From: Candidatus Magasanikiibacteriota bacterium
GTDB taxonomy: Bacteria > Patescibacteriota > Patescibacteriia > Magasanikbacterales > 2-02-FULL-50-9b
DNA: 64,000 nucleotides
NCBI GenBank assembly: GCA_943355025.1
Contig: CALRDW010000003.1
Span: 7,680-71,679 of the forward strand
Direction: 5' to 3'
Part shown: positions 9,962-62,938 of the stretch, one piece after another
Numbering within the stretch: position 1 is the stretch's first letter
How the letters are laid out: every line of letters starts with the position of its first letter
The notes under the pieces: model-generated
What the model saw: the letters and a program-made list of their open reading frames with translations, nothing else
Database searches by the model: none
Told to the model about the DNA's origin: nothing
Position numbers and translations under genes: made by a program

Positions 9962-9989
9962 GGCGTCCCTTTCGGGGGGCGCTTTTTTG
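9962..9989 (+). terminator. rho-independent terminator of the RRM gene
   Basis: GGCGTCCC-TTTC-GGGGGGCGC hairpin followed by TTTTTTG. Confidence 0.6.
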
Positions 9990-9998
9990 TTTCAACCC

Positions 9999-10079
9999 AT
10001 ACCCAAAGAAAATAATTCTACTTCTCAGGGAGAGATAAACAGGAACTCCCGTCGAAGTAGAATTATTTTCTTTGGGTAT
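9999..10079 (+). repeat. structured module copy A: 26-bp perfect inverted-repeat arms (9999-10024 and 10054-10079) around core TCAGGGAGAGATAAACAGGAACTCCCGTC
   Basis: left arm ATACCCAAAGAAAATAATTCTACTTC is the exact reverse complement of the right arm; homologous elements at 18037-18209, 62757-62836 and 27879-27959. Confidence 0.8.
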
Positions 10080-10107
10080 ACGTCAACACAAGTGGTATAC
10101 TGCTCAC

Positions 10108-11208
10108 ATGCTTCCGAATCCATTTGAAAAACCGCTGCCGAAATTAGAAGAAACAGATCCTCTTAAGAATGAGGAAATTGTTCGGAGCCTGCTCGGTGAG
10201 AAGGGTGTTGAACGATATCGAAAAATTTTAAATCGCACGAAAGTTTCTTCGGGGCCCGACGCGGTGTCTGTCGAAGAGCTCAAAGCGCTCGCAGCAGAAT
10301 TGAATGCGCAGCGATTGGCGAGTAAAAAAGAAACTACAGAGTGGCAGGTTGAACAAATTATTTCAAAGGATTATGAACGACAAATGGTATCTCTTCGCGC
10401 AATCAAATTTCTTAAAAGAAAAGACGGAATTTTAGGTTTAAAAGCTGTTGACGGAGAATTTTATCCAGCTCCATCAGAAAAAGAGATCGTACGATATTTT
10501 ATTTCAATTCCGAATATTAAAGAAAAGATATATCAAGGATTTACGCGACTACTCATTGTTCCGTTCGGGCGCTCGCTTGCTTTTTTGAACAAAAAAACAT
10601 CGGATTTGATTTTAGAGCACGGGGAGGGTGGCAGGCTTTTGAGTGAATCAGGCGAAAAGCTCTCCTTTGATTTGTCAGGACCGGTATACAATCAGTTCAA
10701 CAATGCTTTGTCCCGATATTATTCAGGGTCATTCGCTGTTCCGGGTACGGGAGGCAAACTTAAAACCGATTTTTTATCGGGACCACAAGATGGCATGCCA
10801 TTTCCAGGCTACAACATTATTTTATTGCAAGAAGATTTACATATTCCGAAGGAAGGCGAAGGCGTGACACGAAATGGAAGAAAACAAATTGAAGCGGGGA
10901 AATCAGCAATTGAGTATTTGGAATTATTACAAACAGATCCGCAGTATGCGGGTGAGCGTGGCCTCGCGCCCGAAGATTGGCTCACGTTATTTGCAACGCA
11001 ACTGTATCAGACAAACACTGTTATACATGAAACATCTGCGGCAATGCCGCCCACAGGAACGGCTGCACTTTTGATTGGCAGCGATTATTCACATAATGGA
11101 GATGTTTCGTTTGCACACTGGACTGACCGATTAGGCATGGCAGCAATTATGTTGATGAAGTCGCATCATTCAGGCGAAGGGGTAGGCCTTATAACCGCTG
11201 TCGGATAA
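10108..11208 (+). CDS. paralog A of an unknown-function protein family (conserved N-terminus MLPNPFEKPLPKLEETDPLKN)
   Basis: ATG lies 6 nt after a TATACT -10 (10096-10101), so leaderless; shares GFTRLLIVPFG, PFPGY..LLQED..IPKEGEG..GRKQ.EAG, EDWLTLFAT and a C-terminal TAVG with the 18235 and 37341 genes. Confidence 0.75.
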   Translation: MLPNPFEKPLPKLEETDPLKNEEIVRSLLGEKGVERYRKILNRTKVSSGPDAVSVEELKALAAELNAQRLASKKETTEWQVEQIISKDYERQMVSLRAIKFLKRKDGILGLKAVDGEFYPAPSEKEIVRYFISIPNIKEKIYQGFTRLLIVPFGRSLAFLNKKTSDLILEHGEGGRLLSESGEKLSFDLSGPVYNQFNNALSRYYSGSFAVPGTGGKLKTDFLSGPQDGMPFPGYNIILLQEDLHIPKEGEGVTRNGRKQIEAGKSAIEYLELLQTDPQYAGERGLAPEDWLTLFATQLYQTNTVIHETSAAMPPTGTAALLIGSDYSHNGDVSFAHWTDRLGMAAIMLMKSHHSGEGVGLITAVG

Positions 11209-16548: not shown

Positions 16549-18013
16549 AAACATGCTGATTCGTAAAATTTTTGTTTCACTGGCCATGATCGGATTGCTT
16601 TTTGGCAACCCTCTTTTTTCATTTGCAGCAACAACTAAAAAAACGACGCAGACAGCAGTAAAGAAATCTGCGATAAAAAAAACCACAACAAAAAAACCAC
16701 AGCAAAAAATAGTTCCGAAGCAAAAAGAAAAAATAAATCCACGCCGTGCAAATCTTCTTATTTTGAGTGAACATGATGTGCATATTTCTCCGGGCGAAGG
16801 TGTTTCTGTGCGTGTTGGTTTTAAAAATAGTGGTTCGACAGCATGGGGTGTGCGGGAACTTCGCGCCGCTACGGGCAGCGATACAACAATTTTTTCTGAT
16901 GTGAGTTGGCCATCGACAACAACACTTGCGCGTGACGATGGGAGCCCACTTGCAGCAGGACGTCTCGAATTTTACGATTTTATCGTTCGCGCTCCAGACC
17001 AACCTGGAGCATACTTACTTCGCGCTTCGCTATATGCAGATGGGCTTGTTGTGAATGGTGGAGATATTTCTTTACCAATTACGGTTGAAATTCAGGAAAG
17101 CGTAGTACCAACAAGCACGGCGGAGATTGTGCAGCTTCCTCATGAACCAAACATTCGTGTTGCGCTCGGAAAAATCGAGGGTGGAATTTTAGTGCGCACC
17201 GTTGGAGAATATGATTTAAAAACGCTTGATGGAACTGAAATTTTATCTGTGCCTGATGGCGCGAAATTATTGTGGGAGTTTGACCGCGTTTCAAAAGGAT
17301 TCATGGTTACGTATCAAGGAACCCCGTATACGACCGCGACGGCATTCAGATTACAACCGCGGACGCTCGACGGGCGCGTTATTATTCACGATCGCGAAGA
17401 CAGACCGTCGTGGAATGGTTCAATAAATTATAATGATTATCGTGGAGCACTCGAGGTGCAGTGGAGCGATAAAATTCCAGGACTATGGCTCATTAATGAA
17501 TTACCCATGGAGTCGTATGTGCGCGGCTTGATTGAGACAGGAAATTCGGATCCGATTGAATTACAGAAAGCGATTTATACAGCCGCGCGCTCTTACGCAT
17601 ATGTGCAGCTGCCCGATGGCGTGCATTATATTTCGCGTATGTGGGACGTTCATGCGGTGTGGGATCAATATTACAAAGGATACGCTGCGGAAAAAAGTAA
17701 TCCGCACGGCATGCAAGCGATTGAAGAAACGCGCGGGCAGGTTGTTGAGTATCAGGGGAAGCCGGTTGTCACGCCATATTTTACTCAATCAAATGGTACA
17801 ACGAAAACATGGAAAGAGGCGTGGGGTGGAACTAATAAGCCATGGCTTATTCCTGTTGACGCGAAATATGATCATGGTCGGAAGATGTGGGGGCATGGTG
17901 TTGGTATGAGTAATCATGACGCAAAGCAGCGTGCGAAACTCGATGGGTGGAGCTTTGAGCAAATTTTGAAACATTATTATACGGGAGTTGAGCTTGCGCG
18001 TGTTTACGAATAG
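16538..18013 (+). CDS. SpoIID/LytB domain protein
   Basis: C-terminal GHGVGMSNHDAKQRAKLDGWSFEQILKHYYTGVEL matches the SpoIID/LytB signature; N-terminal signal/TM and Lys/Thr-rich low-complexity region. Confidence 0.7.
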   Translation: MRTKNMLIRKIFVSLAMIGLLFGNPLFSFAATTKKTTQTAVKKSAIKKTTTKKPQQKIVPKQKEKINPRRANLLILSEHDVHISPGEGVSVRVGFKNSGSTAWGVRELRAATGSDTTIFSDVSWPSTTTLARDDGSPLAAGRLEFYDFIVRAPDQPGAYLLRASLYADGLVVNGGDISLPITVEIQESVVPTSTAEIVQLPHEPNIRVALGKIEGGILVRTVGEYDLKTLDGTEILSVPDGAKLLWEFDRVSKGFMVTYQGTPYTTATAFRLQPRTLDGRVIIHDREDRPSWNGSINYNDYRGALEVQWSDKIPGLWLINELPMESYVRGLIETGNSDPIELQKAIYTAARSYAYVQLPDGVHYISRMWDVHAVWDQYYKGYAAEKSNPHGMQAIEETRGQVVEYQGKPVVTPYFTQSNGTTKTWKEAWGGTNKPWLIPVDAKYDHGRKMWGHGVGMSNHDAKQRAKLDGWSFEQILKHYYTGVELARVYE

Positions 18014-18036
18014 CACAAAACAGTTGATTCAACTTA

Positions 18037-18209
18037 CGCTCAAAAAGAATAAATGATACTTCTCAGGGAGAGATAAACAATACATCTTTCTCCGTCACAT
18101 CAGCATTTCAAAAATCTTCCGCTCAGGCTAAAATAAAAAATAGATGTCTCTCCGGGGGAGATAAACAGGAACTCCCGTCGAAGTAATAGTTTTTACTTTT
18201 GGGTATACG
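18037..18209 (+). repeat. structured module copy B (degenerate outer arms; core partially duplicated)
   Basis: TCAGGGAGAGATAAACA occurs at 18063 and again as GGGGGAGATAAACAGGAACTCCCGTC at 18153-18179; right arm GAAGTAATAGTTTTTACTTTTGGGTATACG. Confidence 0.7.
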
Positions 18210-18234
18210 TTCATTCAGGTGTTATACTACTCCC

Positions 18235-19437
18235 ATGCTTCCTAATCCTTTTCAAAAACAACTACCAGAGTTTAAAGACACAGACCCTCTTAAGAACAGA
18301 GAGATTGTTAGAGAACTCCTCGGACCAGAGGGAGTACATAAATATAGAAAGATTCTCGGAGATAATTCGGATTCTAATTTAAAGCGTCAGAAAGAAGTTT
18401 CTAAAGAAGATCTCCTTGCCATGGCAGCAGAAGCTCGCTCTAAAATAGATACTCTGTCCAGAGACTCAGTAAAGCCACTCATCGAGAGACTCGTGGAGCG
18501 CCAATACAACTCTCAGATCCAATCTCTGCAAGAGATTGGATTCCTAGAACCTCTCGTACCACAAAAAAAGAAAAGCTTTACCTTTTTCAAATCAAAAGAA
18601 CCAGAAGAAACTACACCAGAGAAACTAGGAGCTACAGACATCCTCGGTACCTTCCGAGAAGTCCCCTCAGAGGAAGCCATCAAAAATCACTTCCTCTCCA
18701 TTCCTAACATCAAACAAAAGATAGATCAAGGATTCACACGGCTTCTCATTGTTCCCTTTGGAACATCCCTCGACACCCTCCGTTCTAAAACAGGAGAACT
18801 TATCAAGAAGCATAAGAAAGCAAACAAACTTCTTGCAGAGGATGGAAGCAGTTTAGAACTCGACACTGCAACACCACTCTGGGCATGGGACGGCTATAAC
18901 AACGCAGACAAGTCAGGAGCGCTCGTTTATTATCCAGAGCACTTTGATAAAGAAAATCACAATGGTACAACCAAAACAGAACTTCTCTCAGGAGCTCAAC
19001 CAAGTCAAGCAAACTCTTCCACACCAAACACCAATCCATTCCCCGGCTACCGTATTCTTCTTATTCAGGAAGACACACAGATTCCACGAGAAGGAAAGGG
19101 AACAGCAAAAGCAGGGAGAGACAGTTTAGAAGCAGGTAAGTCTCCAAACGACTACTTAGAACTTCTTAAAACAGATCAGAGCTATTCTAAAGAACTCGGC
19201 CTCACTCCAGAAGACTGGCTTACTCTCTTTGCAACGAATCTCACAGAGAAGAACAAGGTTATCAATGACTGGCAGTCTAATAAAGACAGTATTAATTATC
19301 TAGTTGGTAGTTATTTCCCTGGTTCTGACCGCGTCCCGCGCGCGTACTGGGGCCGTGGCGGTCGGCGGGCGCGCTTGGACAGGGGCGGGCCGGCGGGTGT
19401 GAGCGGGGATTTTGGCGTTGCTGGCGCGGTGGGGTAG
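18235..19437 (+). CDS. paralog B of the same family (MLPNPFQKQLPEFKDTDPLKN...; Gly/Arg-rich GC-rich C-terminus ending AVG)
   Basis: ATG 6 nt after TATACT (18223-18228); shared motifs as paralog A. Confidence 0.75.
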   Translation: MLPNPFQKQLPEFKDTDPLKNREIVRELLGPEGVHKYRKILGDNSDSNLKRQKEVSKEDLLAMAAEARSKIDTLSRDSVKPLIERLVERQYNSQIQSLQEIGFLEPLVPQKKKSFTFFKSKEPEETTPEKLGATDILGTFREVPSEEAIKNHFLSIPNIKQKIDQGFTRLLIVPFGTSLDTLRSKTGELIKKHKKANKLLAEDGSSLELDTATPLWAWDGYNNADKSGALVYYPEHFDKENHNGTTKTELLSGAQPSQANSSTPNTNPFPGYRILLIQEDTQIPREGKGTAKAGRDSLEAGKSPNDYLELLKTDQSYSKELGLTPEDWLTLFATNLTEKNKVINDWQSNKDSINYLVGSYFPGSDRVPRAYWGRGGRRARLDRGGPAGVSGDFGVAGAVG

Positions 19438-19662
19438 AACCCCTTGGCCCCTTACTCCTTTTTTGTCTCCTTACTAAACCGGTGAAAAGTAACGTACCTC
19501 GGAGTACGTGCTCCGGAGAAATCGAGCAACTCACAACGATGCTCCTTGGTGCTTCACACAGTGAAATACCAGCATTGAGTAGTGAGAATAAAAGCAATTA
19601 TAATCCCCCACCGGTCCGTTACGGGCTCTTTTTGCGGTTCGATGATTTTAAAACGTGTTGGC

Positions 19663-20232
19663 CTAAACCGAGTTGTGTCGCTCCAGGTCTGTTCCGCCAG
19701 CAGCGTGGTATTTGCGATCTTCTTCGGAGAGCTCCATGAGCTCGCGACGCAATTCGTGCGGCATTGGGATTGCGTCGAATTTAAAATGTGCCTGTTCAGC
19801 AGCTGTTTCGAGCTGAAGTCTTCCGTAGTTGAATATTGTTGCAACAATTCCATTTACCTCGCTCGTGGCGTCCTGTATTTTATAGAGATCGAGTTCGGAA
19901 ACTTCGCGCGAGAATAGATTTTTTTGGGAAACTTCAACCAGGCGATCATTAGTAATGATGATCATGTCGAGATAATAGATGAGAAAGCTCGCATAAAAAA
20001 AGAGCGCAATCGACAACTCGTATATGCTGATGGCAACAATGACAAGTGTCCACGCAGCAGGCTGCACAGCGATTGTGTCTGTCGTGGCGGGAGAAATTAT
20101 ATAATACGCAAAGGGAATCGCAGCGAGAACGAGATGTGTGAGAATCGTTGGAATATAGGTAACCCAATGGCGGCGAACCACATGGAGAATTTTTTCGTAA
20201 TCTTTGCGGTTGATGAGTTCATCAAGTTTCAT
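19663..20232 (-). CDS. hypothetical membrane protein (possible bacterial PH-domain type)
   Basis: ORF with two central TM helices; start set at the internal Met (MKLDELINRK). Confidence 0.4.
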   Translation of the reverse strand: MKLDELINRKDYEKILHVVRRHWVTYIPTILTHLVLAAIPFAYYIISPATTDTIAVQPAAWTLVIVAISIYELSIALFFYASFLIYYLDMIIITNDRLVEVSQKNLFSREVSELDLYKIQDATSEVNGIVATIFNYGRLQLETAAEQAHFKFDAIPMPHELRRELMELSEEDRKYHAAGGTDLERHNSV

Positions 20233-20494
20233 AGGTTGGTGCTTCAATGGAAACCACGCCGGCTGGGCCGAAGAATACAAAACGTGCTCCAAGATCAACG
20301 CGTGCGAGTTGAATAACGGACAATCCGATTATCACGAAGCACCACACGCACATAATACTGGTTACGAGGAGCGCGGGGCGGGTAAATGTGCCGGTTGAGT
20401 ATAAATGGTAGGCGTTCGCGTACGACACAAGCAAAAAGAAAATCAAAAAAAGTGCGTAGACCGCGAGAATGACCATGTAGGGTAATGCAAACAT
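20222..20494 (-). CDS. small hypothetical membrane protein
   Basis: 90 aa, three hydrophobic helices; 11-nt overlap with the downstream gene. Confidence 0.35.
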   Translation of the reverse strand: MFALPYMVILAVYALFLIFFLLVSYANAYHLYSTGTFTRPALLVTSIMCVWCFVIIGLSVIQLARVDLGARFVFFGPAGVVSIEAPTYET

Positions 20495-20512
20495 GTATTT
20501 ATTTTACACGAG

Positions 20513-21592
20513 TTAGGCGGCTTCTACAATTGCAGGCGGCGTGAGGCCTAAATGTTCAAATGCGCGACGTGTTACAACACGACCTCTCGGTGTGCGCTCG
20601 AGAAATCCAATTTGAAGAAGATATGGCTCATTTACAGTTTCGAGCGTTTCCATTTCTTCAGCCGCGGCAGCAGCAAGTGTTGAAAGCCCAACAGGCCCGC
20701 CGCGAAAGGTATCGATAATGATTTGTAGAATTTTTCGGTCGCCATGGTCAAGTCCGAGATGATCGACGCGAAGCATGTCGAGTGTACGCATAATTACATC
20801 AGCGGTAACAAGTTCTGCGCGCTCGACTTGTGCAACATCGCGCACGCGGCGAAGCAAACGATTCGCAACGCGCGGCGTTCGTCGCGTCGCAGCCCCCAGT
20901 TTTTCAATCGCAGCATCATTTACCGCAACAGCTAAAATTTGTGCGGATCGTTTGATAATTTTTTTCATGTCTTCATCGGTATAAAAATCAAGATGGAATG
21001 TTGCGCCAAAACGATCGCGTAGTGGCGACGAGAGAAGAGATGGGCGCGTTGTTGCACCGATGAGCGTAAATTTATTAATCTGCATGCGCAGTGTTCGCGC
21101 GCCTGGGCCCTTGCCGATCATGAGGTCAAGTGCGAAATCCTCCATCGCTGGGTATAGAACTTCTTCAATCGATCTATTGAGGCGATGAATTTCGTCGATA
21201 AATAAAACGTCGCCGGTTTCAAGCGAGGTTAAAAGTGCAGCGAGGTCTCCAACTTTTTCAAGCGCTGGGCCCGACGTTACTTTACACACCCGCCCCATCT
21301 CGGCTGCGATTATATTTGCAAGTGTTGTCTTGCCAAGGCCGGGATTGCCATAAAGCAGAACATGGTCGATTGGTTCGCCGCGCATTGTTGCAGCCTGTAG
21401 AAAAACGTTGAGCGTTTCTTTTAAATGGTCCTGGCCGATAAACTCGCTGAGACTGCGTGGGCGCAATTCATTTTCAAGCACACGCTCATCGGGCGGCGCT
21501 GTTGCTGCTATTTCGCGCTCAGAAAATTGTTCATTATTCAGAAACGGCATAGGCTTGTGTGAGGCTTGAGTATAACATGTGTGAGGGCGCAC
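20513..21592 (-). CDS. ruvB: Holliday junction branch migration DNA helicase RuvB
   Basis: Walker A GNPGLGKTTLANIIAAEMG, DEIHRL, full-length RuvB-like sequence. Confidence 0.95.
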   Translation of the reverse strand: MRPHTCYTQASHKPMPFLNNEQFSEREIAATAPPDERVLENELRPRSLSEFIGQDHLKETLNVFLQAATMRGEPIDHVLLYGNPGLGKTTLANIIAAEMGRVCKVTSGPALEKVGDLAALLTSLETGDVLFIDEIHRLNRSIEEVLYPAMEDFALDLMIGKGPGARTLRMQINKFTLIGATTRPSLLSSPLRDRFGATFHLDFYTDEDMKKIIKRSAQILAVAVNDAAIEKLGAATRRTPRVANRLLRRVRDVAQVERAELVTADVIMRTLDMLRVDHLGLDHGDRKILQIIIDTFRGGPVGLSTLAAAAAEEMETLETVNEPYLLQIGFLERTPRGRVVTRRAFEHLGLTPPAIVEAA

Positions 21593-21699
21593 GACTGCTC
21601 ACGTGTGGATAATCTGGGGGTAGGTTTTTTTATGCTCTCAGATTACAGTAATTTGATACACAGTTGTCCACTTGCTATACTACTCGAGCATTTATAAAT

Positions 21700-21715
21700 T
21701 CACTATATATTGTGG
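21700..21715 (+). promoter_or_regulatory. candidate NrdR box
   Basis: TCACTATATATTGTGG resembles the NrdR operator consensus acaCwAtATaTwGtgt; lies between a TGCTATACT -10-like motif (21673-21681) and the nrdJ ATG. Confidence 0.4.
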
Positions 21716-21782
21716 TTGTCAAGGGGGGAGACCACAAGATGTAGTGGTAGTGATATCTATAAGATCCTTTTAACTCTCCCGT

Positions 21783-24700
21783 ATGTCCCCCGAAATGCAA
21801 GCTCAATACACTGCTGCCGTGACGGGCAGCGCAGGCACTCCAAAAGGTTTAGTTATTCCTCGCCGGTATACTCACGAGGGACAAGATCCGTTCGCGACTG
21901 TCGAATACGAATTTCGAACTTCGATCATTCGCAATGCGGAAGGGAAGACAGTGTTTAATATGGACACCGTTGAGGTGCCAAAAAGCTGGTCACAGGTAGC
22001 AACGGATATTTTAGCGCAGAAATATTTTAGAAAAGCAGGTGTGCCGCTCAAAAATGCAGATGGCACGCCAAAATTAAATGTAGATGGGACACCGATGCTC
22101 GGGAGTGAGACGTCGGCAAAGCAGGTAATGCATCGCCTCGCGGGATGTTGGCGCTGGTGGGGAGAAAAGTACGGATATTTTGCAACCCCAAAGGATGCTG
22201 AGGCTTTTTACGACGAGACCGTGTACATGCTCATCCACCAGATGGCAGCGCCAAACTCGCCACAGTGGTTTAACACCGGGTTATATTGGGCGTATGGCAT
22301 CAACGGGCCGGCGCAAGGGCATTATTATGTAGATCCAGATTCGCATGAGCTTACAAAATCAAAGGATTCCTACTCACATCCACAGCCACACGCGTGTTTT
22401 ATTCAGTCGGTAACCGATGATCTCGTAAACGAGGGCGGTATTATGGACCTTTGGGTTCGTGAGGCGCGCTTATTTAAGTATGGATCGGGCACGGGCACGA
22501 ATTTTTCGAATCTTCGTGGTCGTGGTGAGCAGTTGTCGGGTGGTGGATCGTCATCAGGCCTCATGAGCTGGCTTAAGATTGGCGATCGCGCAGCCGGAGC
22601 GATTAAATCAGGTGGCACAACGCGTCGCGCAGCAAAGATGGTTATTATTGATGCTGACCACCCTGACGTTGAAGAGTTTGTCATGTGGAAAGCAGAAGAA
22701 GAAAAGAAAGTTGCTGCACTTGTTGCGGCTGGGTATCCTTCGGACTACGAAGGCGAGGCATATAACACAGTTTCTGGTCAGAATTCAAACAATTCGATTC
22801 GTGTTACTAATACATTTATTGAGGCAGTTCTTGAAGATCGCGAATGGAATCTTAAGTGGCGGACGGATGGACGCGTGTGCAAGACGATTAAAGCGCGCGA
22901 TTTGTGGGACAAGGTTGCGCTCGCTGCATGGAAATGTGCAGATCCTGGTGTGCAACTCGACACAACCATCAACGATTGGCACACTTCGCCAAAATCAGGT
23001 CGCGTTAACGCATCAAATCCGTGTTCCGAGTACATGTTTCTCGACAACACCGCGTGCAACTTGGCTTCGCTCAATCTTCAACACTTTTTTGACCCACGCA
23101 CCATGGTGTTTGATGTTGATTCGTTTCGTCATGCGTCGCGTCTTTGGACAGTCACACTCGAAATTTCAGTTTTGATGGCGCAATTTCCAAGCAAGGAAAT
23201 TGCTCAGATGAGCTATGAATTTCGCACGCTTGGTTTGGGCTACGCGAATCTCGGCGCTGGTGTGCTTATGGCGGCTGGCATTCCGTATGACAGTAAGGAG
23301 GCGCGTGCGATTGCCGGCGCTGTTACTGCAATTATGACGGGTGAGTCGTATGCAACGAGTGCAGAAATGGCGAAGTATTTGGGCGCGTTCTCAAAGTTCG
23401 AACTCAATCGCAGCGACATGCTTCGTGTTATTCGTAACCATCGCCGCGCTGCATACAATGCGCCGAACGAGGAATACGAGAAAATTTCTGTTAAACCTGT
23501 TGGTATCGACCCGCAAGCATGCCCTGTGTACTTGCTCAAAGCAGCTCGTGCCGCGTGGGACCGCGCGCTTGAGCTCGGTGAAATTTACGGCTATAGGAAT
23601 GCACAGACAACGTTACTTGCGCCAACCGGCACGATCGGATTATTGATGGATTGTGCAACGACCGGTGTTGAACCAGATTTTGCACTTGTTAAATTCAAAA
23701 AACTTTCAGGTGGCGGTTACTTCAAGATTGTGAACGATGGAATTCCGACATCACTCCGCACGCTTGGCTATACAGATGCGCAAATTGAAGAAGTTGTGCG
23801 ATATATGCGTGGTGTTGCAACACTTGCGGGTGCGCCACACGTCAATCACACGGTATTAAAAGCAAAAGGGTTTGCGGATAGCGACATTGAAAAAATTGAA
23901 AAGCAATTGGTCGGTGTGTTTGAGCTTCAGTTTGCGTTTAATGTGTATGCGCTTGGCGAAGATTTGCTTCAGCGACTTGGCTTCAGACCAGAACAATATA
24001 ATGATCTTAACTTTAACATGCTTCGCGCGCTTGGATTTACGGATCAGGAGCTTGCAGAAGCAAATGATTATGTGTGTGGCACAATGACGATTGAAGGAGC
24101 ACCACATCTTAAGAAAGAACATTATGCGGTATTTGATTGTGCAAACCGATGCGGAAAGAAAGGCGAACGATATATTCACCACATGGGCCATGTGCGCATG
24201 ATGGCAGCGGTACAGCCGTTTTTGTCGGGCGCAATTTCTAAGACGATTAACATGCCAAACGAGGTCACGACTGATGATATTAAGGAGGCATATATTGAAT
24301 CGTGGCGTCTTGGTATTAAAGCAATGGCTTTGTATCGCGACGGATGTAAATTATCGCAGCCGCTTTCGGGTAAGAGTGATAAAAAAGATGAAAAGAAGGA
24401 AGAGACTGCGTCTGCAGCGCCTGTTTTTGCGGAAGTGCCCGTTGCGCCACAGCAGGCTCCAGTCGCTGTAGCAGATCTTCCGGAGGCAGTAGTGCCGACG
24501 CCACCAATCAATTCATCCGTTGAATCCGTTGCGTTGCGCGCTCCGTCAGAGGCTGTCAAACAGATGGTTGAATATGTGGGGAGCGGTTTGCAGTTTGGTG
24601 AACGACGACCGTTGCCAAGCAAACGCACTGGCATCACGGTTGAAGCAAAAATTGGCAGTCAACAAATTTATTTGCGCACGGGTGAATATGCGGATGGCAA

Positions 24701-25280
24701 ACTCGGTGAAATTTTCATCGATATGTATCGCGAGGGTGCAGCGTTCCGTAGCGTGCTCAACTGTTTTGCGATTTCGATTTCGATTGGCCTGCAGCATGGC
24801 GTTCCACTCGAGAAGTTCGTTGAGAAATTTACGTTCACACGATTTGAACCATCTGGTTTTACAACGCATCCGAATGTAAAGATGTGTACATCGATTGTGG
24901 ATTACATTTTTCGCGTGCTTGCGGTTGAATATCTTGGGCGCATGGATTTGGCGCAAGTTCCACCAACGGGTATTGAGATGAATCGCGTTGATAAATTGCG
25001 CGAGGTTGCTGAAGCGGCGAATGAGCATGCGCAGGAGAGCGTGGGCGAATTGTCAGCTGTTGTTGCAGAGACGGCAATCGGCGAGCAGACCGCGTTTATT
25101 CCAAACGCAGTCGGCTCCATGAGCTCGGCGGGCGCAATTTTAGGACATAAAAAGTCAGCGCAAGGCCTCGACAATTTGATGGGCGATGCGCCGCCGTGCG
25201 ACACGTGCGGGCACACAACAGTTCGCAACGGATCATGTTACCGCTGCCTTAATTGCGGCGCGAGCATGGGGTGTAGCTAA
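21783..25280 (+). CDS. nrdJ: adenosylcobalamin-dependent ribonucleotide reductase (class II)
   Basis: 1165 aa; class II RNR-like throughout, C-terminal Cys cluster CDTCGHTTVRNGSCYRCLNCG; internal low-complexity linker. Confidence 0.85.
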   Translation: MSPEMQAQYTAAVTGSAGTPKGLVIPRRYTHEGQDPFATVEYEFRTSIIRNAEGKTVFNMDTVEVPKSWSQVATDILAQKYFRKAGVPLKNADGTPKLNVDGTPMLGSETSAKQVMHRLAGCWRWWGEKYGYFATPKDAEAFYDETVYMLIHQMAAPNSPQWFNTGLYWAYGINGPAQGHYYVDPDSHELTKSKDSYSHPQPHACFIQSVTDDLVNEGGIMDLWVREARLFKYGSGTGTNFSNLRGRGEQLSGGGSSSGLMSWLKIGDRAAGAIKSGGTTRRAAKMVIIDADHPDVEEFVMWKAEEEKKVAALVAAGYPSDYEGEAYNTVSGQNSNNSIRVTNTFIEAVLEDREWNLKWRTDGRVCKTIKARDLWDKVALAAWKCADPGVQLDTTINDWHTSPKSGRVNASNPCSEYMFLDNTACNLASLNLQHFFDPRTMVFDVDSFRHASRLWTVTLEISVLMAQFPSKEIAQMSYEFRTLGLGYANLGAGVLMAAGIPYDSKEARAIAGAVTAIMTGESYATSAEMAKYLGAFSKFELNRSDMLRVIRNHRRAAYNAPNEEYEKISVKPVGIDPQACPVYLLKAARAAWDRALELGEIYGYRNAQTTLLAPTGTIGLLMDCATTGVEPDFALVKFKKLSGGGYFKIVNDGIPTSLRTLGYTDAQIEEVVRYMRGVATLAGAPHVNHTVLKAKGFADSDIEKIEKQLVGVFELQFAFNVYALGEDLLQRLGFRPEQYNDLNFNMLRALGFTDQELAEANDYVCGTMTIEGAPHLKKEHYAVFDCANRCGKKGERYIHHMGHVRMMAAVQPFLSGAISKTINMPNEVTTDDIKEAYIESWRLGIKAMALYRDGCKLSQPLSGKSDKKDEKKEETASAAPVFAEVPVAPQQAPVAVADLPEAVVPTPPINSSVESVALRAPSEAVKQMVEYVGSGLQFGERRPLPSKRTGITVEAKIGSQQIYLRTGEYADGKLGEIFIDMYREGAAFRSVLNCFAISISIGLQHGVPLEKFVEKFTFTRFEPSGFTTHPNVKMCTSIVDYIFRVLAVEYLGRMDLAQVPPTGIEMNRVDKLREVAEAANEHAQESVGELSAVVAETAIGEQTAFIPNAVGSMSSAGAILGHKKSAQGLDNLMGDAPPCDTCGHTTVRNGSCYRCLNCGASMGCS

Positions 25281-25308
25281 TTGAAACATGGTCGTGCAAT
25301 CGATTTTT

Positions 25309-25337
25309 GGAACAGGCCGCGCAAGCGGTCTGTTTTG
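25309..25337 (+). terminator. rho-independent terminator after nrdJ
   Basis: AACAGGCCGCGC-AAGC-GGTCTGTT hairpin + TTTT. Confidence 0.55.
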
Positions 25338-25376
25338 AATTAAAAAAGATTACGTCGAAGCCCTGAGTTTTCCACA

Positions 25377-25405
25377 TTGACTAAAATGGTATTGCGTGAT
25401 ATAAC
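25377..25405 (+). promoter_or_regulatory. sigma70-like promoter (TTGACT-17-TATAAC)
   Basis: -35 TTGACT at 25377-25382, 17-nt spacer, -10 TATAAC at 25400-25405, about 40 nt upstream of the 25446 ORF. Confidence 0.45.
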
Positions 25406-25445
25406 CGACTAAGAGAGTGCTCACAACATCACTTCGAGGTGCACC

Positions 25446-25973
25446 ATGCCGCTCAACTGGTTCCGTGGTAAAAAGAATTCTATTGCAGAGCGCGATCCAC
25501 ATCGCGGAAACGCGCGTATCATTCAAGAACATGATGGGAGATTTCGGTTATTGCGTCCGGGGCATGCAGCGCCCGAGGGCTCTGCGTTTATTCGGGTAAT
25601 CAGGGCCGTGCATCTGGGGACTGATATCGAAATTGCTGATGGTCGTACGTTCACGGCCAAGATGACAGTTGGTATCGCACATCCGCATAGCAATGACGAG
25701 CTCACGCACGAAGCCCTGATGCGGTATTTGCAGACTCTTGCAGAGGGCGATTTGAAAGCGCTTGCTGCACGAATTGTACACGAACAAGCAGCGCACATTT
25801 CGGGCGAAGTGTGCTTGCTCGAAAATCATGAGAATGAATGTGCGGCGCACCCGGAATGGGAGCGCGCACATTTGCAGCAACTTGTTGCTCATGAACTTGA
25901 GCAACACGGTTGCTCGCTCAGCTCGTGGCTTCTCGCCGAAAAGGATCCGTCGGTTGTGCCGAAGAGGATCTAA
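25446..25973 (+). CDS. hypothetical protein (GC-rich)
   Basis: 175 aa ORF; no domain recognised. Confidence 0.4.
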   Translation: MPLNWFRGKKNSIAERDPHRGNARIIQEHDGRFRLLRPGHAAPEGSAFIRVIRAVHLGTDIEIADGRTFTAKMTVGIAHPHSNDELTHEALMRYLQTLAEGDLKALAARIVHEQAAHISGEVCLLENHENECAAHPEWERAHLQQLVAHELEQHGCSLSSWLLAEKDPSVVPKRI

Positions 25974-26072
25974 AGAGGACTACAGGTTTTGTCTCTCGAA
26001 TGCCCCGCGTTCGAGAGTTTTTTTATACCTACGTCTTGACACAGACCTAATTTTACGCTACCTTTTAGAGGT

Positions 26073-26660
26073 ATGAAGATCTACACCCGCGGTGGCGACA
26101 CCGGCACAACTTCACTTGTTGATGGCACACGAGTCTCAAAAGACGACGCGCGCATTGATGCATATGGAACGCTCGATGAGCTTAATTCTATTATTGGGCT
26201 TGCGCGTGCTGAACTTGCAGAGTGTTCTGGTGGTGGATGCGCATGTTCGGGCGCGGCGCCGGACATGGATGCGCTCGATCCAATTTTATATAAAATTCAG
26301 AACGAATTATTCGTCATCGGCTCTCGTTTAGCAACTCCACCGGGACCCATGGAAACGAAAATCGCGAGCGTGTCGCAAGAGGCGATTGATTTTCTTGAAA
26401 AAGGAATGGATATTTTATCAACGGATCTTCCACCACTTACACGCTTTATTTTGCCCGGCGGCTCGACGCTTGCTGCGGAATTGCATCTTGGCCGAACAGT
26501 GTGTCGTCGTGCTGAGCGATTAATCATCACACTGAGTTCGCAGGGAGAAATTGATCCGCTCATTATTAAATATGTAAATCGTTTGAGTGATTTTTTATTT
26601 GTCGCTGCACGGTGGGCATGTTTACAGCAAGGCGAGCCAGAAGTTTTTTGGGAAAAATAA
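26073..26660 (+). CDS. ATP:cob(I)alamin adenosyltransferase, PduO type
   Basis: N-terminal signature MKIYTRGGDTGTTSL and overall PduO/MMAB-like sequence; Cys/Gly-rich insertion. Confidence 0.8.
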   Translation: MKIYTRGGDTGTTSLVDGTRVSKDDARIDAYGTLDELNSIIGLARAELAECSGGGCACSGAAPDMDALDPILYKIQNELFVIGSRLATPPGPMETKIASVSQEAIDFLEKGMDILSTDLPPLTRFILPGGSTLAAELHLGRTVCRRAERLIITLSSQGEIDPLIIKYVNRLSDFLFVAARWACLQQGEPEVFWEK

Positions 26661-26676
26661 AAAAATTTTAGAATTT

Positions 26677-27648
26677 TTAATTGAGTGTACGTGTAACAAT
26701 TTTTGCGGGGCTGAAAATAAAATTGTCAGGAATTTTTTTAGAAATTTTTACAGCGACAAAGCAACTGATCGCGCCGATCGTTGCTCCCGCAAGAATATCT
26801 ACGCCATAATGTTGAAGCCCGTAGAGCGTTGCAACAACCGTAAGCAAAAAAAATGGTACGAGAATAATTGCAGAGTATTTCCAAATTCGATATCCAAAAA
26901 ATAAAATGAGAGTTGCCCAGGCGATGTGCATGCTGGGAAAATTTGTTACATCGAGAAATGGTGTTGCATCATGCGTTTGGAGAGTTTTGATCGTGCTGAT
27001 AAATTGTGTAACAGCGGGGGAGATATACATGCTCGCTGACTCGGCCGCGAGGGCCGGAGAGAGTGGTGTGTTAGTAATGTTATAAAGAAATCGAGCGGCG
27101 GGTGTGAGACCGGGGAATGAGAGCCAGAGCGGGGTGCTGAGAATTTCTGAAAAAACAAATGCAAGAAGAACGGCGAGTGAAAATTTTTGTCCGCGCACGA
27201 ATGCTGCAATGAAAAGAAGGCCAAGTGCAAGCGCGAGGAAGCTGTAGCAGACGAGCGAAGTGGGACCGATTATCTCGAGAATGTTGTGAAACGGATTTGC
27301 GCTTGTATGAATCCAGAGCGGAAGATTAACGCCGAATATTTTTTTATCCCAACCTAATAATTTTTCAGCGAGCATTGTTGCGCGCGCGGGCGTTGTGCTG
27401 TGTGCAACAGAAGTTAAAATGATTCCTGAGAGCAGCGCAAGACCGATGAAAATTCCAGTGAGTGCAAGTGAGGATCGAATATAAATAAGAATCGCGGCGC
27501 GGGCGTGTTTATTTTTGTGCACGAGATATTGTACGCTCCACACATAAATATTAATCGCGTAAAATAAAATGAGGAAAATAAAAAATAGTAAGAGAAAATA
27601 CGAACCGCCGAAATGGATATAGTAGCTGAGGGATTTTAAAATTTGCAT
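26677..27648 (-). CDS. PAP2-family membrane phosphatase-like protein
   Basis: polytopic membrane protein with PSMH and LQHYGVDILAG motifs (PAP2 motifs 2/3-like). Confidence 0.5.
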   Translation of the reverse strand: MQILKSLSYYIHFGGSYFLLLFFIFLILFYAINIYVWSVQYLVHKNKHARAAILIYIRSSLALTGIFIGLALLSGIILTSVAHSTTPARATMLAEKLLGWDKKIFGVNLPLWIHTSANPFHNILEIIGPTSLVCYSFLALALGLLFIAAFVRGQKFSLAVLLAFVFSEILSTPLWLSFPGLTPAARFLYNITNTPLSPALAAESASMYISPAVTQFISTIKTLQTHDATPFLDVTNFPSMHIAWATLILFFGYRIWKYSAIILVPFFLLTVVATLYGLQHYGVDILAGATIGAISCFVAVKISKKIPDNFIFSPAKIVTRTLN

Positions 27649-27745
27649 ACTGTGGTTTATGCAACAGGGGTGATTGAGTGTTTTGCGGGCGGACTTTTCA
27701 GACTGGTCTTATAGTACTCAAGGCGACCACGCTCACGACTCCAGC

Positions 27746-27850
27746 TCACATCTGAGACATCATCAAAAAGCCACGGGTAATACGTGCCAATAAGAATGGC
27801 TCTGTGTCTTTAAACTCTGGGAGTTGTTTTTCAAAAGGGTTAGGAAGCAT
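27746..27850 (-). pseudogene. N-terminal fragment (34 codons) of the MLPNPF paralog family, copy D
   Basis: MLPNPFEKQLPEFKDTEP then divergent FLLARITRGFLMMSQM*; preceded by TATACT 6 nt upstream and module copy D. Confidence 0.6.
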
Positions 27851-27878
27851 GGAAGCAGTATAGCACTTGAATGAACGC

Positions 27879-27959
27879 ATACTCAAAGAAAATGCAGATG
27901 CCTCGACGGGGGCTCGTGTATATCTCCCCCTGAGAGGCATCTGCATTTTCTTTGAGTAT
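27879..27959 (-). repeat. structured module copy D: 26-bp perfect IR arms (27879-27904 / 27934-27959) around core (minus-strand reading TCAGGGGGAGATATACACGAGCCCCCGTC)
   Basis: arm ATACTCAAAGAAAATGCAGATGCCTC and its exact reverse complement; conserved upstream box (minus-strand) CAGTGATTCAACATATACTCAAAG. Confidence 0.8.
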
Positions 27960-28051
27960 ATGTTGAATCACTGTATTGAACTACTTATAAGCTTTTGAGC
28001 TCTGTTGAAAATAAATTAAAAACACCCACATTTTGATGGGTATTTTTAATT

Positions 28052-28132
28052 TGCCGCGGGCGGGAGTCGAACCCACAAGCCTTACGGCGGGGGATTTTAA
28101 GTCCCCTGTGTATACCATTCCACCACCGCGGC
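28052..28132 (-). tRNA. tRNA-Leu (anticodon TAA)
   Basis: GCCGCGG acceptor, anticodon stem GGGGA/TCCCC loop CTTAAAA, long variable arm GCCGTAAGGCTT, T arm GTGGG-TTCGACT-CCCGC; TTGACC-17-TACACT promoter on the minus strand just upstream. Confidence 0.8.
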
Positions 28133-28252
28133 ACAAGCCTATCGCAGTGTATAAAAAAACTCGGTTGCGGTCAATGTTATAAAAAATCCGCCGAGCACAC
28201 AAAGTGTTGGGCGGATGGATCGACTCTCGTTGAATAAGGCAGATCTGAGTCT

Positions 28253-29167
28253 CTAACAGCTACGATTCCACTCCTCGATGAGTGCAGGCAACTGCGTAAA
28301 GTCTTCGACGAAATGCGTCGCATGTTTGCTGTGCGTGTCGCATTTACGTCGGTTGACGAAAATCCGCATCGGAACCCCGAACGTTTTTGCGTGCAACATA
28401 TCTGTGTGCGTGTCGCCAATTTTCACTGCATGCGCGACAGAGACTCCGGTTCGGCGCTCGAATTCATCCCACGTTTCTTTGCCGCCTTTGCCGTGCGGGT
28501 CAGTGACGATAATGTTCGGCACAAGACTGAGAACGCGCTGTTTTTCAAACCGCTCGAGTTTTTTGCGGATTGAATACTCAGGATCGTAGAGCGGGCGATC
28601 ATTATCACGACGTTGGAGTCGCATGTCCGTTGTTGTTACGCCAACGATCTGCAGACCAAGTCCGTGCTCGAGCTGTTCGAGAATCGCTGCGCTGTCTTCG
28701 TACGGGCGACTGATCTTAGAAACAACATCCCAGAACAAATCATCGTGGTGTACGAGACTGTTGAGATGTCTCAGATCAAACGGATCCGAAATAAGTGAAT
28801 GCATCATGTATGCCGCGCGTCCAGTCCAGCTCCAATGGAGATCAGCTGGAAGCACGCCATTCTTTGATTCAACGTAGAGCGGAAAAGATCGCCGTAGCTC
28901 AGCTGACAAACGGCGATACTCGTTGATTCCTCGATTCGCAATCAGAATTTGGATCTGCTCGCGGAACGTGCCATGAACATGGTCCGTATCGATGTCCGGA
29001 TAGTCATTGAGAAGTGATTCTGCCGCCGCATACTCAGCATATTTTGCAACAAAGTCTGTTGCGCAATAATCCATGTCGCATGCAACTGCTCGAATAATTT
29101 GTTTACGTGGATTCACGGGTAACTCCTTGCTGAAAATATCCAGCGAAACGAGTGTACTGCAGTCCAA
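28253..29167 (-). CDS. hypothetical protein with HAD-like C-terminal segment
   Basis: 304 aa; C-terminal VAHAVKIGDTHTDMLHAKTFGVPMRIFVN is reminiscent of HAD motif III/IV; followed by a hairpin terminator at 28180-28216. Confidence 0.4.
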   Translation of the reverse strand: MDCSTLVSLDIFSKELPVNPRKQIIRAVACDMDYCATDFVAKYAEYAAAESLLNDYPDIDTDHVHGTFREQIQILIANRGINEYRRLSAELRRSFPLYVESKNGVLPADLHWSWTGRAAYMMHSLISDPFDLRHLNSLVHHDDLFWDVVSKISRPYEDSAAILEQLEHGLGLQIVGVTTTDMRLQRRDNDRPLYDPEYSIRKKLERFEKQRVLSLVPNIIVTDPHGKGGKETWDEFERRTGVSVAHAVKIGDTHTDMLHAKTFGVPMRIFVNRRKCDTHSKHATHFVEDFTQLPALIEEWNRSC

Positions 29168-43265: not shown

Positions 43266-43302
<37 letters not shown>

Positions 43303-43887: not shown

Positions 43888-43919
<32 letters not shown>

Positions 43920-45819: not shown

Positions 45820-45850
<31 letters not shown>

Positions 45851-46309: not shown

Positions 46310-46325
46310 CGATGTCGGCTCATCG

Positions 46326-62570: not shown

Positions 62571-62756
62571 AGTAAATTCGTGACTATACAGGGATTATAA
62601 CAGTGTTTTTGAGGGCTGGCAAGGGGAGTCGGCCGCTCATAGTTTTAGTGTTATATCAGAAGTCGGAGGCGTTGGCAAGAGGTGTGTACTATTCATTTTT
62701 TGGTTTCAACAGGGCTCGGAAGTTTATAAGTAATACAATACGGTGATTCAACATGC

Positions 62757-62836
62757 ACTCAAAAGTAAAAACTATTACTTCTCAGGGGGAGATGAACGAG
62801 GGGCCCCCGTCGAAGTAATAGTTTTTACTTTTGAGT
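62757..62836 (+). repeat. structured module copy C: 25-bp perfect IR arms (62757-62781 / 62812-62836) around core TCAGGGGGAGATGAACGAGGGGCCCCCGTC
   Basis: left arm ACTCAAAAGTAAAAACTATTACTTC equals the reverse complement of the right arm; upstream box CGGTGATTCAACATGCACTCAAAAG. Confidence 0.8.
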
Positions 62837-62866
62837 ATAGGTTCACTCAGGTGTTATACTGCTTCC

Positions 62867-62938
62867 ATGCTTCCTAATCCTTTTCAAAAAACTCTTATAA
62901 GGGAGCTTGTTCATGTCTCAAACACGACTTGGAACTGA
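62867..62938 (+). pseudogene. N-terminal fragment (23 codons) of the MLPNPF paralog family, copy C
   Basis: MLPNPFQKTLIRELVHVSNTTWN*; ATG 6 nt after TATACT (62855-62860); contains AAGGGAG SD for the next ORF. Confidence 0.55.

What the first reader, a model, noticed from the sequence alone, without database searches (positions are those of the whole stretch)
27648..27983. Module copy D (minus strand) sits downstream of tRNA-Leu and upstream of a PAP2-like membrane gene, with a 34-codon family fragment
On the minus strand a tRNA-Leu(TAA) terminator is followed by the conserved box, a 26-bp perfect-arm hairpin, TATACT, and an ATG at 27850 encoding MLPNPFEKQLPEFKDTEP then FLLARITRGFLMMSQM*. The next gene, about 100 nt further on, is the PAP2-like membrane protein (27648-26677). 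This is a second case where the module carries only the conserved N-terminal codons and is attached to an unrelated gene. It suggests a promoter or regulatory cassette that spreads by recombination within the conserved 5' coding leader.
Basis: partly seen in the sequence, partly recalled or inferred. Interest (0 to 1): 0.6.

Follow-up and report, generated by a model that had tools for sequence, protein, structure and literature searches.

The report
Decayed gene copy keeping its promoter
Copy D is what remains of a full-length member of a lineage-specific gene family after an internal deletion; its promoter and upstream hairpin survive and probably now drive the neighbouring PAP2 membrane gene, so this is ordinary gene decay and not a mobile promoter cassette.

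Summary
The order on the minus strand is tRNA-Leu(TAA), terminator, conserved box, 26-bp perfect-arm hairpin, TGCTATACT, ATG 27850, a 34-codon ORF, then PAP2 97 nt later. The module is far beyond chance: blastn E about 1e-38 to three other window copies, and hairpin z = -10.7.

One statement is wrong. The fragment does not carry only N-terminal codons. After codon 18, in the +1 frame, 27809-27657 still encodes the family's C-terminus (AILIGTYYPW..VSWSRERG...ITPVA*). It ends 8 nt before the PAP2 ATG. Support: HMM positions 325-359, 0 of 3000 shuffles, hhalign P = 1e-4.

A second relic with both ends retained lies before RuvC on a contig from the same metagenome. Copy D is therefore an in-situ internal-deletion pseudogene, not an inserted cassette.

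TGnTATACT is this genome's standard extended -10 (13 sites against 0.76 expected). In the module it ends 6 nt before the ATG, which implies a leaderless transcript. No other consensus promoter or strong terminator lies before PAP2, so read-through expression of PAP2 is likely (inferred).

The hairpin lies upstream of the promoter, and its 3' arm holds the -35. Its arms co-vary strongly and its apex is conserved. It matches no Rfam family, and its function is unresolved.

The parts
28051..28133 (-). tRNA-Leu (anticodon TAA), the upstream neighbour
   Evidence: ARAGORN; Rfam tRNA 56.6 bits. Its own promoter TTGACC-17-TACACT lies at 28174-28146.
28013..28041 (-). Intrinsic terminator of tRNA-Leu (ACCCAT-caaa-ATGTGGGT followed by GTTTTTAATTT)
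   Evidence: The sequence is shown. The same stem is flagged by the terminator scan, which reports it on the + strand at 28024-28041.
27971..28010 (-). Conserved 'box' (TTTCAACAGAGCTCAAAAGCTTATAAGTAGTTCAATACAG). It is shared with copy C and most copies on related contigs but is absent from copy A.
   Evidence: (I3). No consensus promoter was called in it.
27868..27970 (-). Long hairpin. Perfect 26-bp arms at 27959-27934 and 27904-27879. 3x3 internal loop TCA/GTC. Apical 5-bp stem GGGGG/CCCCC (27930-27926 and 27912-27908). 13-nt loop.
   Evidence: MFE -61.5 kcal/mol, z -10.7. Model R1 scores 117 bits. Covariation across 6 copies: 97.8% of cells paired, 16 pairs changed on both sides, 0/500 shuffles reach this. 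No Rfam family.
27857..27886 (-). Sigma-70-type promoter: -35 TTGAGT (inside the base of the hairpin's 3' arm), 18-nt spacer, extended -10 TGCTATACT ending 6 nt before the ATG
   Evidence: TGNTATACT occurs 13 times in the window against 0.76 expected, mostly upstream of ORFs.
27797..27850 (-). First 18 codons of the family gene (MLPNPFEKQLPEFKDTEP), 74-91% nucleotide identity to intact paralogues
   Evidence: (HMM positions 1-29, E = 4.6e-6).
27746..27850 (-). 34-codon ORF produced by the deletion and frameshift, ending at TGA 27748-27746
27657..27809 (-). Frameshifted (+1) C-terminal remnant of the family gene: (RHR)AILIGTYYPWLFDDVSDVSWSRERGRLEYYKTSLKSPPAKHSITPVA, stop TAA at 27659-27657, 8 nt before the PAP2 ATG
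   Evidence: blastx to P0008 residues 324-349, 48% identity. Family HMM positions 325-359. 0 of 3000 dinucleotide shuffles reach the score. hhalign P = 1e-4 at columns 325-350. The last 12 nt, CCTGTTGCATAA, match GCTGTTGCATAA of paralogue L012 at 11 of 12 positions.
26677..27648 (-). PAP2-superfamily membrane protein, 323 aa, the probable beneficiary of the relic promoter
   Evidence: Pfam PF14378 at 8.9e-11 and PF01569 at 5.2e-7. Only one database homologue at E <= 1e-20, and it is identical.
9988..11208 (+). Copy A: intact hairpin (9988-10090), promoter, and intact family gene 10108-11208
18025..19437 (+). Copy B: a half element, then a hairpin with non-complementary arms (18115-18217), then promoter and intact family gene 18235-19437
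   Evidence: z = -0.37; 42.6 bits.
62699..62938 (+). Copy C: box, intact hairpin (62744-62849), promoter and a 23-codon family fragment that overlaps a 64-aa gene (62913-63107) with its own AAGGGAG ribosome-binding site

Best explanation
Copy D is the wreck of a full-length paralogue of a lineage-specific multigene family. At least 11 intact or nearly intact copies were seen in this window and in contigs of the same metagenome. The gene once lay between tRNA-Leu and the PAP2 gene, with its stop codon 8 nt before the PAP2 start.

An internal deletion of roughly 0.9 kb, not a multiple of three, joined codon 18 to about codon 325. This left a 34-codon out-of-frame ORF and a silent C-terminal remnant.

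The 5' control region was kept. It consists of an extended -10 sigma-70 promoter (TTGAGT, 18 nt, TGCTATACT) whose -10 ends 6 nt before the ATG. The transcript should therefore start at or next to the start codon, that is, be leaderless.

No other consensus promoter and no strong terminator lie between this promoter and PAP2. The relic promoter therefore most likely transcribes PAP2 through a leader of about 200 nt. That dependence would explain why the promoter and first codons stayed family-like while the remnant decayed.

The long hairpin lies upstream of the promoter, and its 3' arm holds the -35 and a T-rich UP-like tract. It is therefore not part of the family mRNA. My best guess for its role is a terminator-like insulator fused to the promoter: an A-tract, a G+C-containing stem, then a T-tract, readable on both strands. 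It would have been carried along when the gene family duplicated.

Shown here: the anatomy, the remnant homology, the promoter consensus and the covariation. Inferred: leaderless initiation, PAP2 co-transcription and the hairpin's role.
For: **Relic status**
- blastx hit to the family C-terminus.
- Family HMM hit at positions 325-359, on the same strand and directly after the N-terminal fragment.
- 0 of 3000 dinucleotide shuffles reach the score.
- hhalign P = 1e-4.
- The remnant ends in ..ITPVA*, like family ends ..ITAVG*/..RLAVA*, with 11 of 12 identical terminal nucleotides to L012.
- An independent relic of the same architecture exists at L014:5108-5180: MLPNPFEQPLIY.. then ..SGVTTAVA*, with the RuvC ATG 4 nt later.

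**Promoter**
- The consensus scan calls it.
- TGNTATACT occurs 13 times against 0.76 expected.
- The spacing TATACT-N6-ATG/GTG holds in all 11 copies collected with that pattern.
- Shine-Dalgarno motifs are rare and leaders are short in this genome.

**PAP2 dependence**
- No other promoter was called on the minus strand between 27857 and 27648.
- The junction region has no significant structure (z = -0.65).
- The three relics with annotated neighbours (D, the L014 relic, L010:4102), and C with its 64-aa ORF, are followed by co-oriented genes. Most intact family genes with an annotated neighbour are followed by convergent genes.

**Hairpin**
- Covariation is strong.
- Arms are about 63% identical between copies, against 88% for the apex and the -35 region.
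- The same layout, with the -35 in the 3' arm of a terminator hairpin, occurs at L010:4130-4170.
Against: - The remnant match is weak in absolute terms: 4.3-6.7 bits, and E = 0.93 if all 5190 six-frame pieces count as the search space.
- No related genome with an intact gene at this locus could be found. PAP2 has no homologue other than itself, and the module is absent from the representative-genome and JGI scans.
- No transcript data are available, so leaderless initiation and PAP2 read-through are inferred only.
- At L010:4102 the relic is followed by a good terminator and a separate promoter. Relic promoters are therefore not always needed by the downstream gene.
- The terminator or insulator idea does not explain the conserved asymmetric apex. 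Canonical terminators already precede most modules.
- The hairpin is dispensable in several intact copies: window B, L014:1642, and L019:3173.
Confidence: 0.68

Rival explanations
1. First reader's model. The box, hairpin, promoter and leader form a portable regulatory cassette. It is copied in front of unrelated genes by recombination within the conserved 5' coding leader.
For: Four cases place the module and a short N-terminal fragment in front of non-family genes: PAP2, a 64-aa gene, an epimerase operon and RuvC. Copies C and L010:4102 show no detectable C-terminal remnant. Both lose family similarity at about codon 12-13. Codons 1-45 keep more identical synonymous codons than the rest of the gene (0.67-0.72 against about 0.5). 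This is compatible with gene conversion of the 5' end.
Against: D and the RuvC relic retain the family stop codon and C-terminal codons, as expected from in-situ deletion. Breakpoints are not uniform. No flanking repeats are seen. Model R1 finds no canonical hairpin away from a family 5' end in about 124 kb.
Confidence: 0.12
2. Silent relic. The fragment and its promoter are dead or irrelevant. PAP2 is transcribed from its own unrecognised promoter within 27745-27649.
For: About 200 nt and an out-of-frame ORF separate the module start from PAP2. Weak -10-like strings (TATAAG, CATAAA) occur in the interval. At L010:4102 the downstream operon does have its own promoter.
Against: No consensus promoter and no TGnTATACT occur in the interval. 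The promoter and the first 54 nt remain 74-91% identical to intact copies. The remnant has decayed below blastn detection, which argues for continued constraint or gene conversion on the 5' part.
Confidence: 0.15
3. The hairpin acts as RNA. It could be a small RNA, or a 5' UTR element transcribed from the box or by read-through. It might be processed by RNase III, and it would regulate the family gene.
For: The structure is very stable and strongly co-varying. The apex is conserved. The L012 copy replaces the apex with a 125-nt highly structured insert (-81 kcal/mol, z = -7.8).
Against: No consensus promoter lies upstream of the hairpin. Copy A has no box at all. The genome's standard -10 lies downstream of the hairpin. 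Canonical terminators precede most modules. No Rfam match was found. Arms are almost purely Watson-Crick with very few G-U pairs. No ORF through the hairpin is conserved.
Confidence: 0.15
4. The hairpin acts as DNA. It could be a supercoil-dependent cruciform, or an operator bound at the conserved apex (centred near -69), that controls the promoter embedded in its 3' arm. Alternatively it is a neutral quasi-palindrome kept perfect by intramolecular template switching.
For: It lies in DNA not transcribed from the family promoter, and the -35 is inside the stem base. Arms are Watson-Crick on both strands. Arm sequences drift like unconstrained DNA while pairing is kept. Single fresh mismatches occur in L010:4102 and L019.
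Against: A 19-nt unpaired centre disfavours cruciform extrusion (general knowledge). No regulator has been identified. The neutral version does not explain the conserved apex.
Confidence: 0.25

Closest known systems
Gene remnants (internal-deletion pseudogenes) whose promoter goes on serving the downstream gene of a former operon
   Same: N-terminal and C-terminal codons of a recognisable family flank a deletion. A frameshift is present. The downstream gene starts 8 nt after the old stop. The promoter is intact.
   Different: The parent family is uncharacterised and lineage-specific. Expression of PAP2 from the relic promoter is inferred, not measured.
Leaderless mRNAs from extended -10 promoters, common for example in Actinobacteria and Deinococcus (general knowledge)
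   Same: TGnTAnnnT lies 6 nt upstream of the ATG. No Shine-Dalgarno sequence is present. The genome uses few Shine-Dalgarno motifs.
   Different: No TSS data are available. One paralogue has GTG at this position (L007:1128).
Bidirectional intrinsic terminators and terminator-promoter overlaps in compact genomes
   Same: An A-rich tract, a stem that co-varies, then a T-rich tract. It reads symmetrically on both strands. The next promoter's -35 sits in the descending arm, as at L010:4130-4170.
   Different: The stem is much longer than usual, the loop is 13 nt, and there is an internal 3x3 loop. The T-tract is interrupted and fully paired with the A-tract. The apex sequence is conserved. A canonical terminator already lies upstream. 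The scanner did not flag it.
Integron attC recombination sites
   Same: An imperfect palindrome of about 100 nt with a conserved base and a variable terminal structure. The 5' base ATTCAAC fits RYYYAAC.
   Different: The 3' base GTTCATT does not fit GTTRRRY. The element lies 5' of a gene that has its own promoter. The copies are dispersed, not arrayed. No integrase was found among 28 window ORFs scanned.
Promoter-bearing palindromic repeats (Correia/CREE elements, REP, MITEs)
   Same: A repeated palindromic element of about 100 nt, associated with an outward promoter, found before different genes.
   Different: Here the arms are the variable part and the centre is conserved. MITEs show the opposite pattern. 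Similarity continues into the coding sequence. No target duplications are seen. No free-standing canonical copies were found.

Membership tests
Pseudogene / internal-deletion remnant of the MLPNPF... family | Recognisable N-terminal homology to the family | tested here: met
   HMM positions 1-29, E = 4.6e-6. 16 of 18 residues match paralogue B.
Pseudogene / internal-deletion remnant of the MLPNPF... family | Recognisable C-terminal homology, collinear, on the same strand and ending at a stop codon | tested here: met
   HMM positions 325-359. 0/3000 shuffles. hhalign P = 1e-4. Terminal CCTGTTGCATAA matches L012 at 11 of 12 positions.
Pseudogene / internal-deletion remnant of the MLPNPF... family | An intact gene at the orthologous position in a relative | not testable with these tools
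   PAP2 has only an identical database homologue. The pattern scans of representative genomes and JGI metagenomes gave only chance hits.
Sigma-70 extended -10 promoter giving a leaderless mRNA | -35 and -10 hexamers with 16-18 nt spacing and a TG extension | tested here: met
   TTGAGT-18-TATACT with TG. The motif is enriched 13 against 0.76 expected.
Sigma-70 extended -10 promoter giving a leaderless mRNA | Transcription start at the A of the start codon | not testable with these tools
   Only the 6-nt distance from -10 to ATG/GTG is available, and it holds in all 11 copies collected.
Intrinsic (bidirectional) terminator | G+C-rich stem with a short loop, followed directly by a U-tract | tested here: inconclusive
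   The scanner did not flag it. The inner stem and the TTTTCTTT tract are present, but the loop is 13 nt and the T-tract is paired with an A-tract.
Rfam RNA families (riboswitches, leaders, sRNAs, ribozymes) | Match to a curated covariance model | tested here: not met
   Nothing reaches gathering score. At E <= 10 there are only generic hairpin hits to miRNA precursor models, far below threshold. The same holds for the L012 variant.
Integron attC site | R''/R' core sites RYYYAAC ... GTTRRRY | tested here: not met
   The 5' ATTCAAC fits. The 3' GTTCATT/GTTCACT does not (sequence).
Integron attC site | Cassette array next to an IntI tyrosine recombinase, with attC 3' of promoterless ORFs | tested here: not met
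   Copies are dispersed, lie 5' of genes and carry a promoter. No integrase was found among the ORFs scanned.
MITE / REP-type mobile palindrome | Conserved terminal inverted repeats, and copies independent of any one gene family | tested here: not met
   Arms are the least conserved part. Every canonical hit of model R1 adjoins a family 5' end. Only the divergent 'type II' half elements occur elsewhere.
PAP2 superfamily (downstream gene) | Pfam PAP2 domain above the gathering score | tested here: met
   PF14378 42.4 bits (cut-off 27). PF01569 29.9 bits (cut-off 27.2).

The most novel reading that the evidence does not exclude
The hairpin may be a structure-specific recombination or gene-conversion site. 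It would act as single-stranded or cruciform DNA, loosely like attC. In this small genome it would mediate duplication, 5'-end homogenisation and rearrangement of the family.

This would account for several observations:
- the conserved apex with freely co-varying arms;
- the chimeric hairpin of copy B;
- the 'type II' half elements that diverge from the canonical form inside the apex;
- the many N- and C-terminal family fragments.
Probability: 0.06. Interest if true: 0.8.

Novelty: new member of a known kind. Interest (0 to 1): 0.33.

Why it matters
For genome annotation, the 34-codon ORF (called as a 66-aa gene on contig L006) should be labelled a pseudogene fragment. The PAP2 gene should be linked to the promoter at 27886-27857.

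More broadly, the locus shows gene-family turnover in a small genome. I read the genome as CPR-like, and that is an inference. Paralogues decay by internal deletion while their promoters persist in front of co-oriented downstream genes.

The analysis also defines this organism's promoter consensus (TGnTATACT) and suggests that short or absent leaders are common.

The upstream hairpin remains unexplained. Its conserved apex and compensating arms make it a candidate for experiment. The family's core domain is also open: about 900 cluster representatives and no Pfam, NCBIfam, PHROG or PDB match.

Tried and rejected
- **Rfam.** Searched at gathering score and at E <= 10. No family matched; only generic miRNA-precursor hairpin hits appeared.
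- **A small protein encoded across the hairpin.** Rejected. The frame is interrupted by stops or shifted in several copies.
- **Integron attC and MITE readings.** Defining features were not met (see the membership test).
- **Module in other organisms.** The apex pattern in 185,579 representative genomes gave 5 hits. The one I read (L003) was a chance match, and the titles of the others name unrelated taxa. The promoter-plus-leader pattern in JGI metagenomes gave one chance hit.
- **Orthologous tRNA-Leu/PAP2 locus.** PAP2 has only an identical homologue, so the insertion-versus-deletion test by synteny could not be done.
- **C-terminal remnants after copies C and L010:4102.** None detected.
- **Nucleotide-level alignment of the D remnant to family 3' ends.** The end-gap-free global alignment degenerated and was discarded.
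- **Literature.** Searches on leaderless translation in Patescibacteria and on palindrome-promoter modules found nothing relevant.
- **Look-ups that failed.** Exact look-ups of P0002 and P0011 failed.

Full report
**Observation**

- tRNA-Leu(TAA) lies at 28051-28133.
- It is followed by a terminator hairpin and T-run at 28041-28013.
- A conserved box follows at 28010-27971.
- A hairpin follows, with arms at 27959-27934 and 27904-27879 that form 26 perfect Watson-Crick pairs. Its MFE is -61.5 kcal/mol, with z = -10.7.
- The promoter TTGAGT-18-TGCTATACT lies at 27886-27857.
- The ATG at 27850 opens the ORF MLPNPFEKQLPEFKDTEP-FLLARITRGFLMMSQM*, which stops at 27748-27746.
- A PAP2-superfamily gene lies at 27648-26677.

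The module is repeated three more times in the window, at about 9987, 18016 and 62699, with blastn E values of 1e-27 to 1e-38.

**The gene family**

Copies A and B open intact genes of 366 and 400 aa. A divergent paralogue without the module lies at 37341-38369.

The word-indexed search found only 28 relatives. Every member contig I retrieved came from three related ENA assemblies (ERZ27280326, ERZ27280297, ERZ27279977), two Logan runs and one NCBI MAG, GCA_943359715.1. Contig L006 is 99.95% identical to window 16621-28704.

Together, the window and these contigs hold at least 11 intact or nearly intact paralogues. About a dozen promoter or module copies were seen in all.

The first 45 or so codons are much more conserved than the rest of the protein. 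Amino-acid identity there is 0.68-0.90, and synonymous codons are identical somewhat more often.

The core domain, about 290 aa, is widespread: 902 cluster representatives. It has no Pfam, NCBIfam, PHROG or PDB match. A confident AlphaFold model has no Foldseek hit in the PDB.

**What copy D is**

I asked whether the DNA after the junction resembles the 3' end of a family gene. It does. In the +1 frame, 27809-27657 reads AILIGTYYPWLFDDVSDVSWSRERGRLEYYKTSLKSPPAKHSITPVA*.
- blastx aligns it to residues 324-349 of P0008 at 48% identity.
- The family HMM aligns it to positions 325-359. This was the top hit that was neither an intact gene nor an already recognised fragment among 5190 six-frame pieces.
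- None of 3000 dinucleotide shuffles of the 148-nt interval reaches its score.
- hhalign gives P = 1e-4 at the same columns.
- Its last 12 nt, CCTGTTGCATAA, match the end of paralogue L012 (GCTGTTGCATAA) at 11 of 12 positions.
- Its stop codon lies 8 nt before the PAP2 ATG.

A second, independent relic has the same build. At L014:5108-5180, twelve N-terminal codons are joined out of frame to ..SGVTTAVA*. The RuvC start lies 4 nt later.

Copy D is therefore a resident full-length paralogue that suffered an internal, frame-breaking deletion of about 0.9 kb. PAP2 was probably already its downstream operon partner.

Copy C in the window and L010:4102 keep only about 12-13 family-like codons, with no detectable C-terminal trace. 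Their origin stays open.

**Promoter and expression (partly inferred)**

TGNTATACT occurs 13 times in the window against 0.76 expected. Outside the modules it lies upstream of ORFs at distances of 9 to about 100 nt. It is therefore this organism's standard extended -10.

Shine-Dalgarno motifs are rare, at 6 of 51 crude ORFs. In the module the -10 ends exactly 6 nt before the ATG (GTG in one copy) in all 11 copies collected. This predicts a leaderless mRNA.

Between this promoter and PAP2 the scan finds no other promoter and no terminator. The junction region has no significant structure.

The relics with known neighbours are followed by co-oriented genes. Most intact paralogues with an annotated neighbour are followed by convergent genes. 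This fits promoters being retained where a downstream gene needs them.

There is a caveat. At L010:4102 the fragment runs into a good terminator whose 3' arm carries a separate promoter (TTGCGG-17-TACACT) for the epimerase operon.

**The hairpin**

Six distinct copies align with 97.8% of cells paired and 16 pairs changed on both sides. No shuffle of 500 reaches these values, and slid controls pair at about 44%.

Arms are about 63% identical between copies, similar to the poorly conserved box. The apex (TCA-GGGGG-13 nt-CCCCC-GTC) and the -35 region are 88% identical. The arms are almost purely Watson-Crick.

The hairpin lies upstream of the promoter, and canonical terminators precede most modules. 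It is therefore not part of the family mRNA.

It is also dispensable.
- Copy B has non-complementary arms (z = -0.37).
- L014:1642 keeps an 11-bp stub.
- L012 carries a 125-nt structured insert in place of the apex.
- L019:3173 and the most divergent member, L018, lack it.

Model R1 finds no canonical copy away from a family 5' end in about 124 kb. Divergent 'type II' half elements do occur after other genes. Two contigs end inside them.

My preferred reading is a terminator-like insulator fused to the promoter, with an A-tract, a stem and a T-tract on both strands. This does not explain the conserved apex. Cruciform or operator, neutral quasi-palindrome, and RNA readings remain open.

**Comparison with known systems**

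The locus matches a gene remnant with a retained promoter. It resembles leaderless extended -10 promoters and terminator-promoter overlaps. It fails the defining features of integron attC sites, MITE/REP elements and every Rfam family (see the membership test).

**Verdict**

The 'spreading cassette' interpretation is not supported for copy D. The finding is largely ordinary gene decay, although the upstream hairpin is still unexplained.

Noticed in passing
window 42700-46695, ORF 44796-45347: The 23S rRNA match spans 3996 nt against a 2925-nt model. An ORF inside the extra sequence is a LAGLIDADG homing endonuclease (PF00961, 7.8e-24). This looks like an intron-type insertion in the rRNA gene.
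   Followed up: partly
window, 13 sites (e.g. 2044, 21673, 30283, 37302, 60023): TGNTATACT is 17-fold over-represented (13 against 0.76 expected) and lies upstream of ORFs. It is evidently the organism's extended -10 consensus. Shine-Dalgarno motifs are rare and leaders are short.
   Followed up: partly
L014:5108-5180: A second family relic keeps both N-terminal (MLPNPFEQPLIY) and C-terminal (SGVTTAVA*) codons. It lies 4 nt upstream of the RuvC start and has no hairpin.
   Followed up: partly
L011:11437-11586 and L007:11344-11556: Orphan C-terminal fragments of the family (HMM positions 334-370, E about 1e-6 to 1e-7) lie a few hundred nt downstream of intact family genes.
   Followed up: no
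L007:16507-16705, L014:9330-9529, L011:9725-9860, window 18025-18115: 'Type II' half elements consist of a module-like 5' arm and half apex, then AATACATCTTTCTCCGTC, then a second 24-bp hairpin (AGCATTCCAAAAATCTTCC...GGAATGCT). Two contigs end at the same base inside it, suggesting a multicopy repeat that breaks assemblies.
   Followed up: partly
L012:2166-2343: In one paralogue the hairpin apex is replaced by a 125-nt highly structured insert between complementary arms (whole region -81 kcal/mol, z = -7.8). It has no Rfam match.
   Followed up: partly
L010:4126-4186: After a 13-codon family fragment comes a strong terminator-like hairpin (GCCGCA..TGCGGC followed by a T-run). Its 3' arm carries TTGCGG-17-TACACT for the epimerase/glycosyltransferase operon. 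The leaderless ORF reads through the hairpin, so it could act as an attenuator.
   Followed up: no
window 10108-11208, 18235-19437, 37341-38369 and related contigs: The family's core domain of about 290 aa has about 900 cluster representatives in public data but no Pfam, NCBIfam, PHROG or PDB match. Members often sit beside envelope-glycan genes (Wzy_C, flippase, GT1/2/4, epimerase, DegT, Bac_transf, PAP2).
   Followed up: partly
window 4645-5622: An ORF carrying RhuM and Fic/DOC domains (PF13310 at 1.2e-25, PF02661 at 2.3e-12) lies next to tRNA-Arg.
   Followed up: no
L007:1128: One otherwise intact paralogue has GTG instead of ATG at the predicted leaderless start. GTG is usually a poor initiator on leaderless mRNAs (general knowledge).
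   Followed up: no
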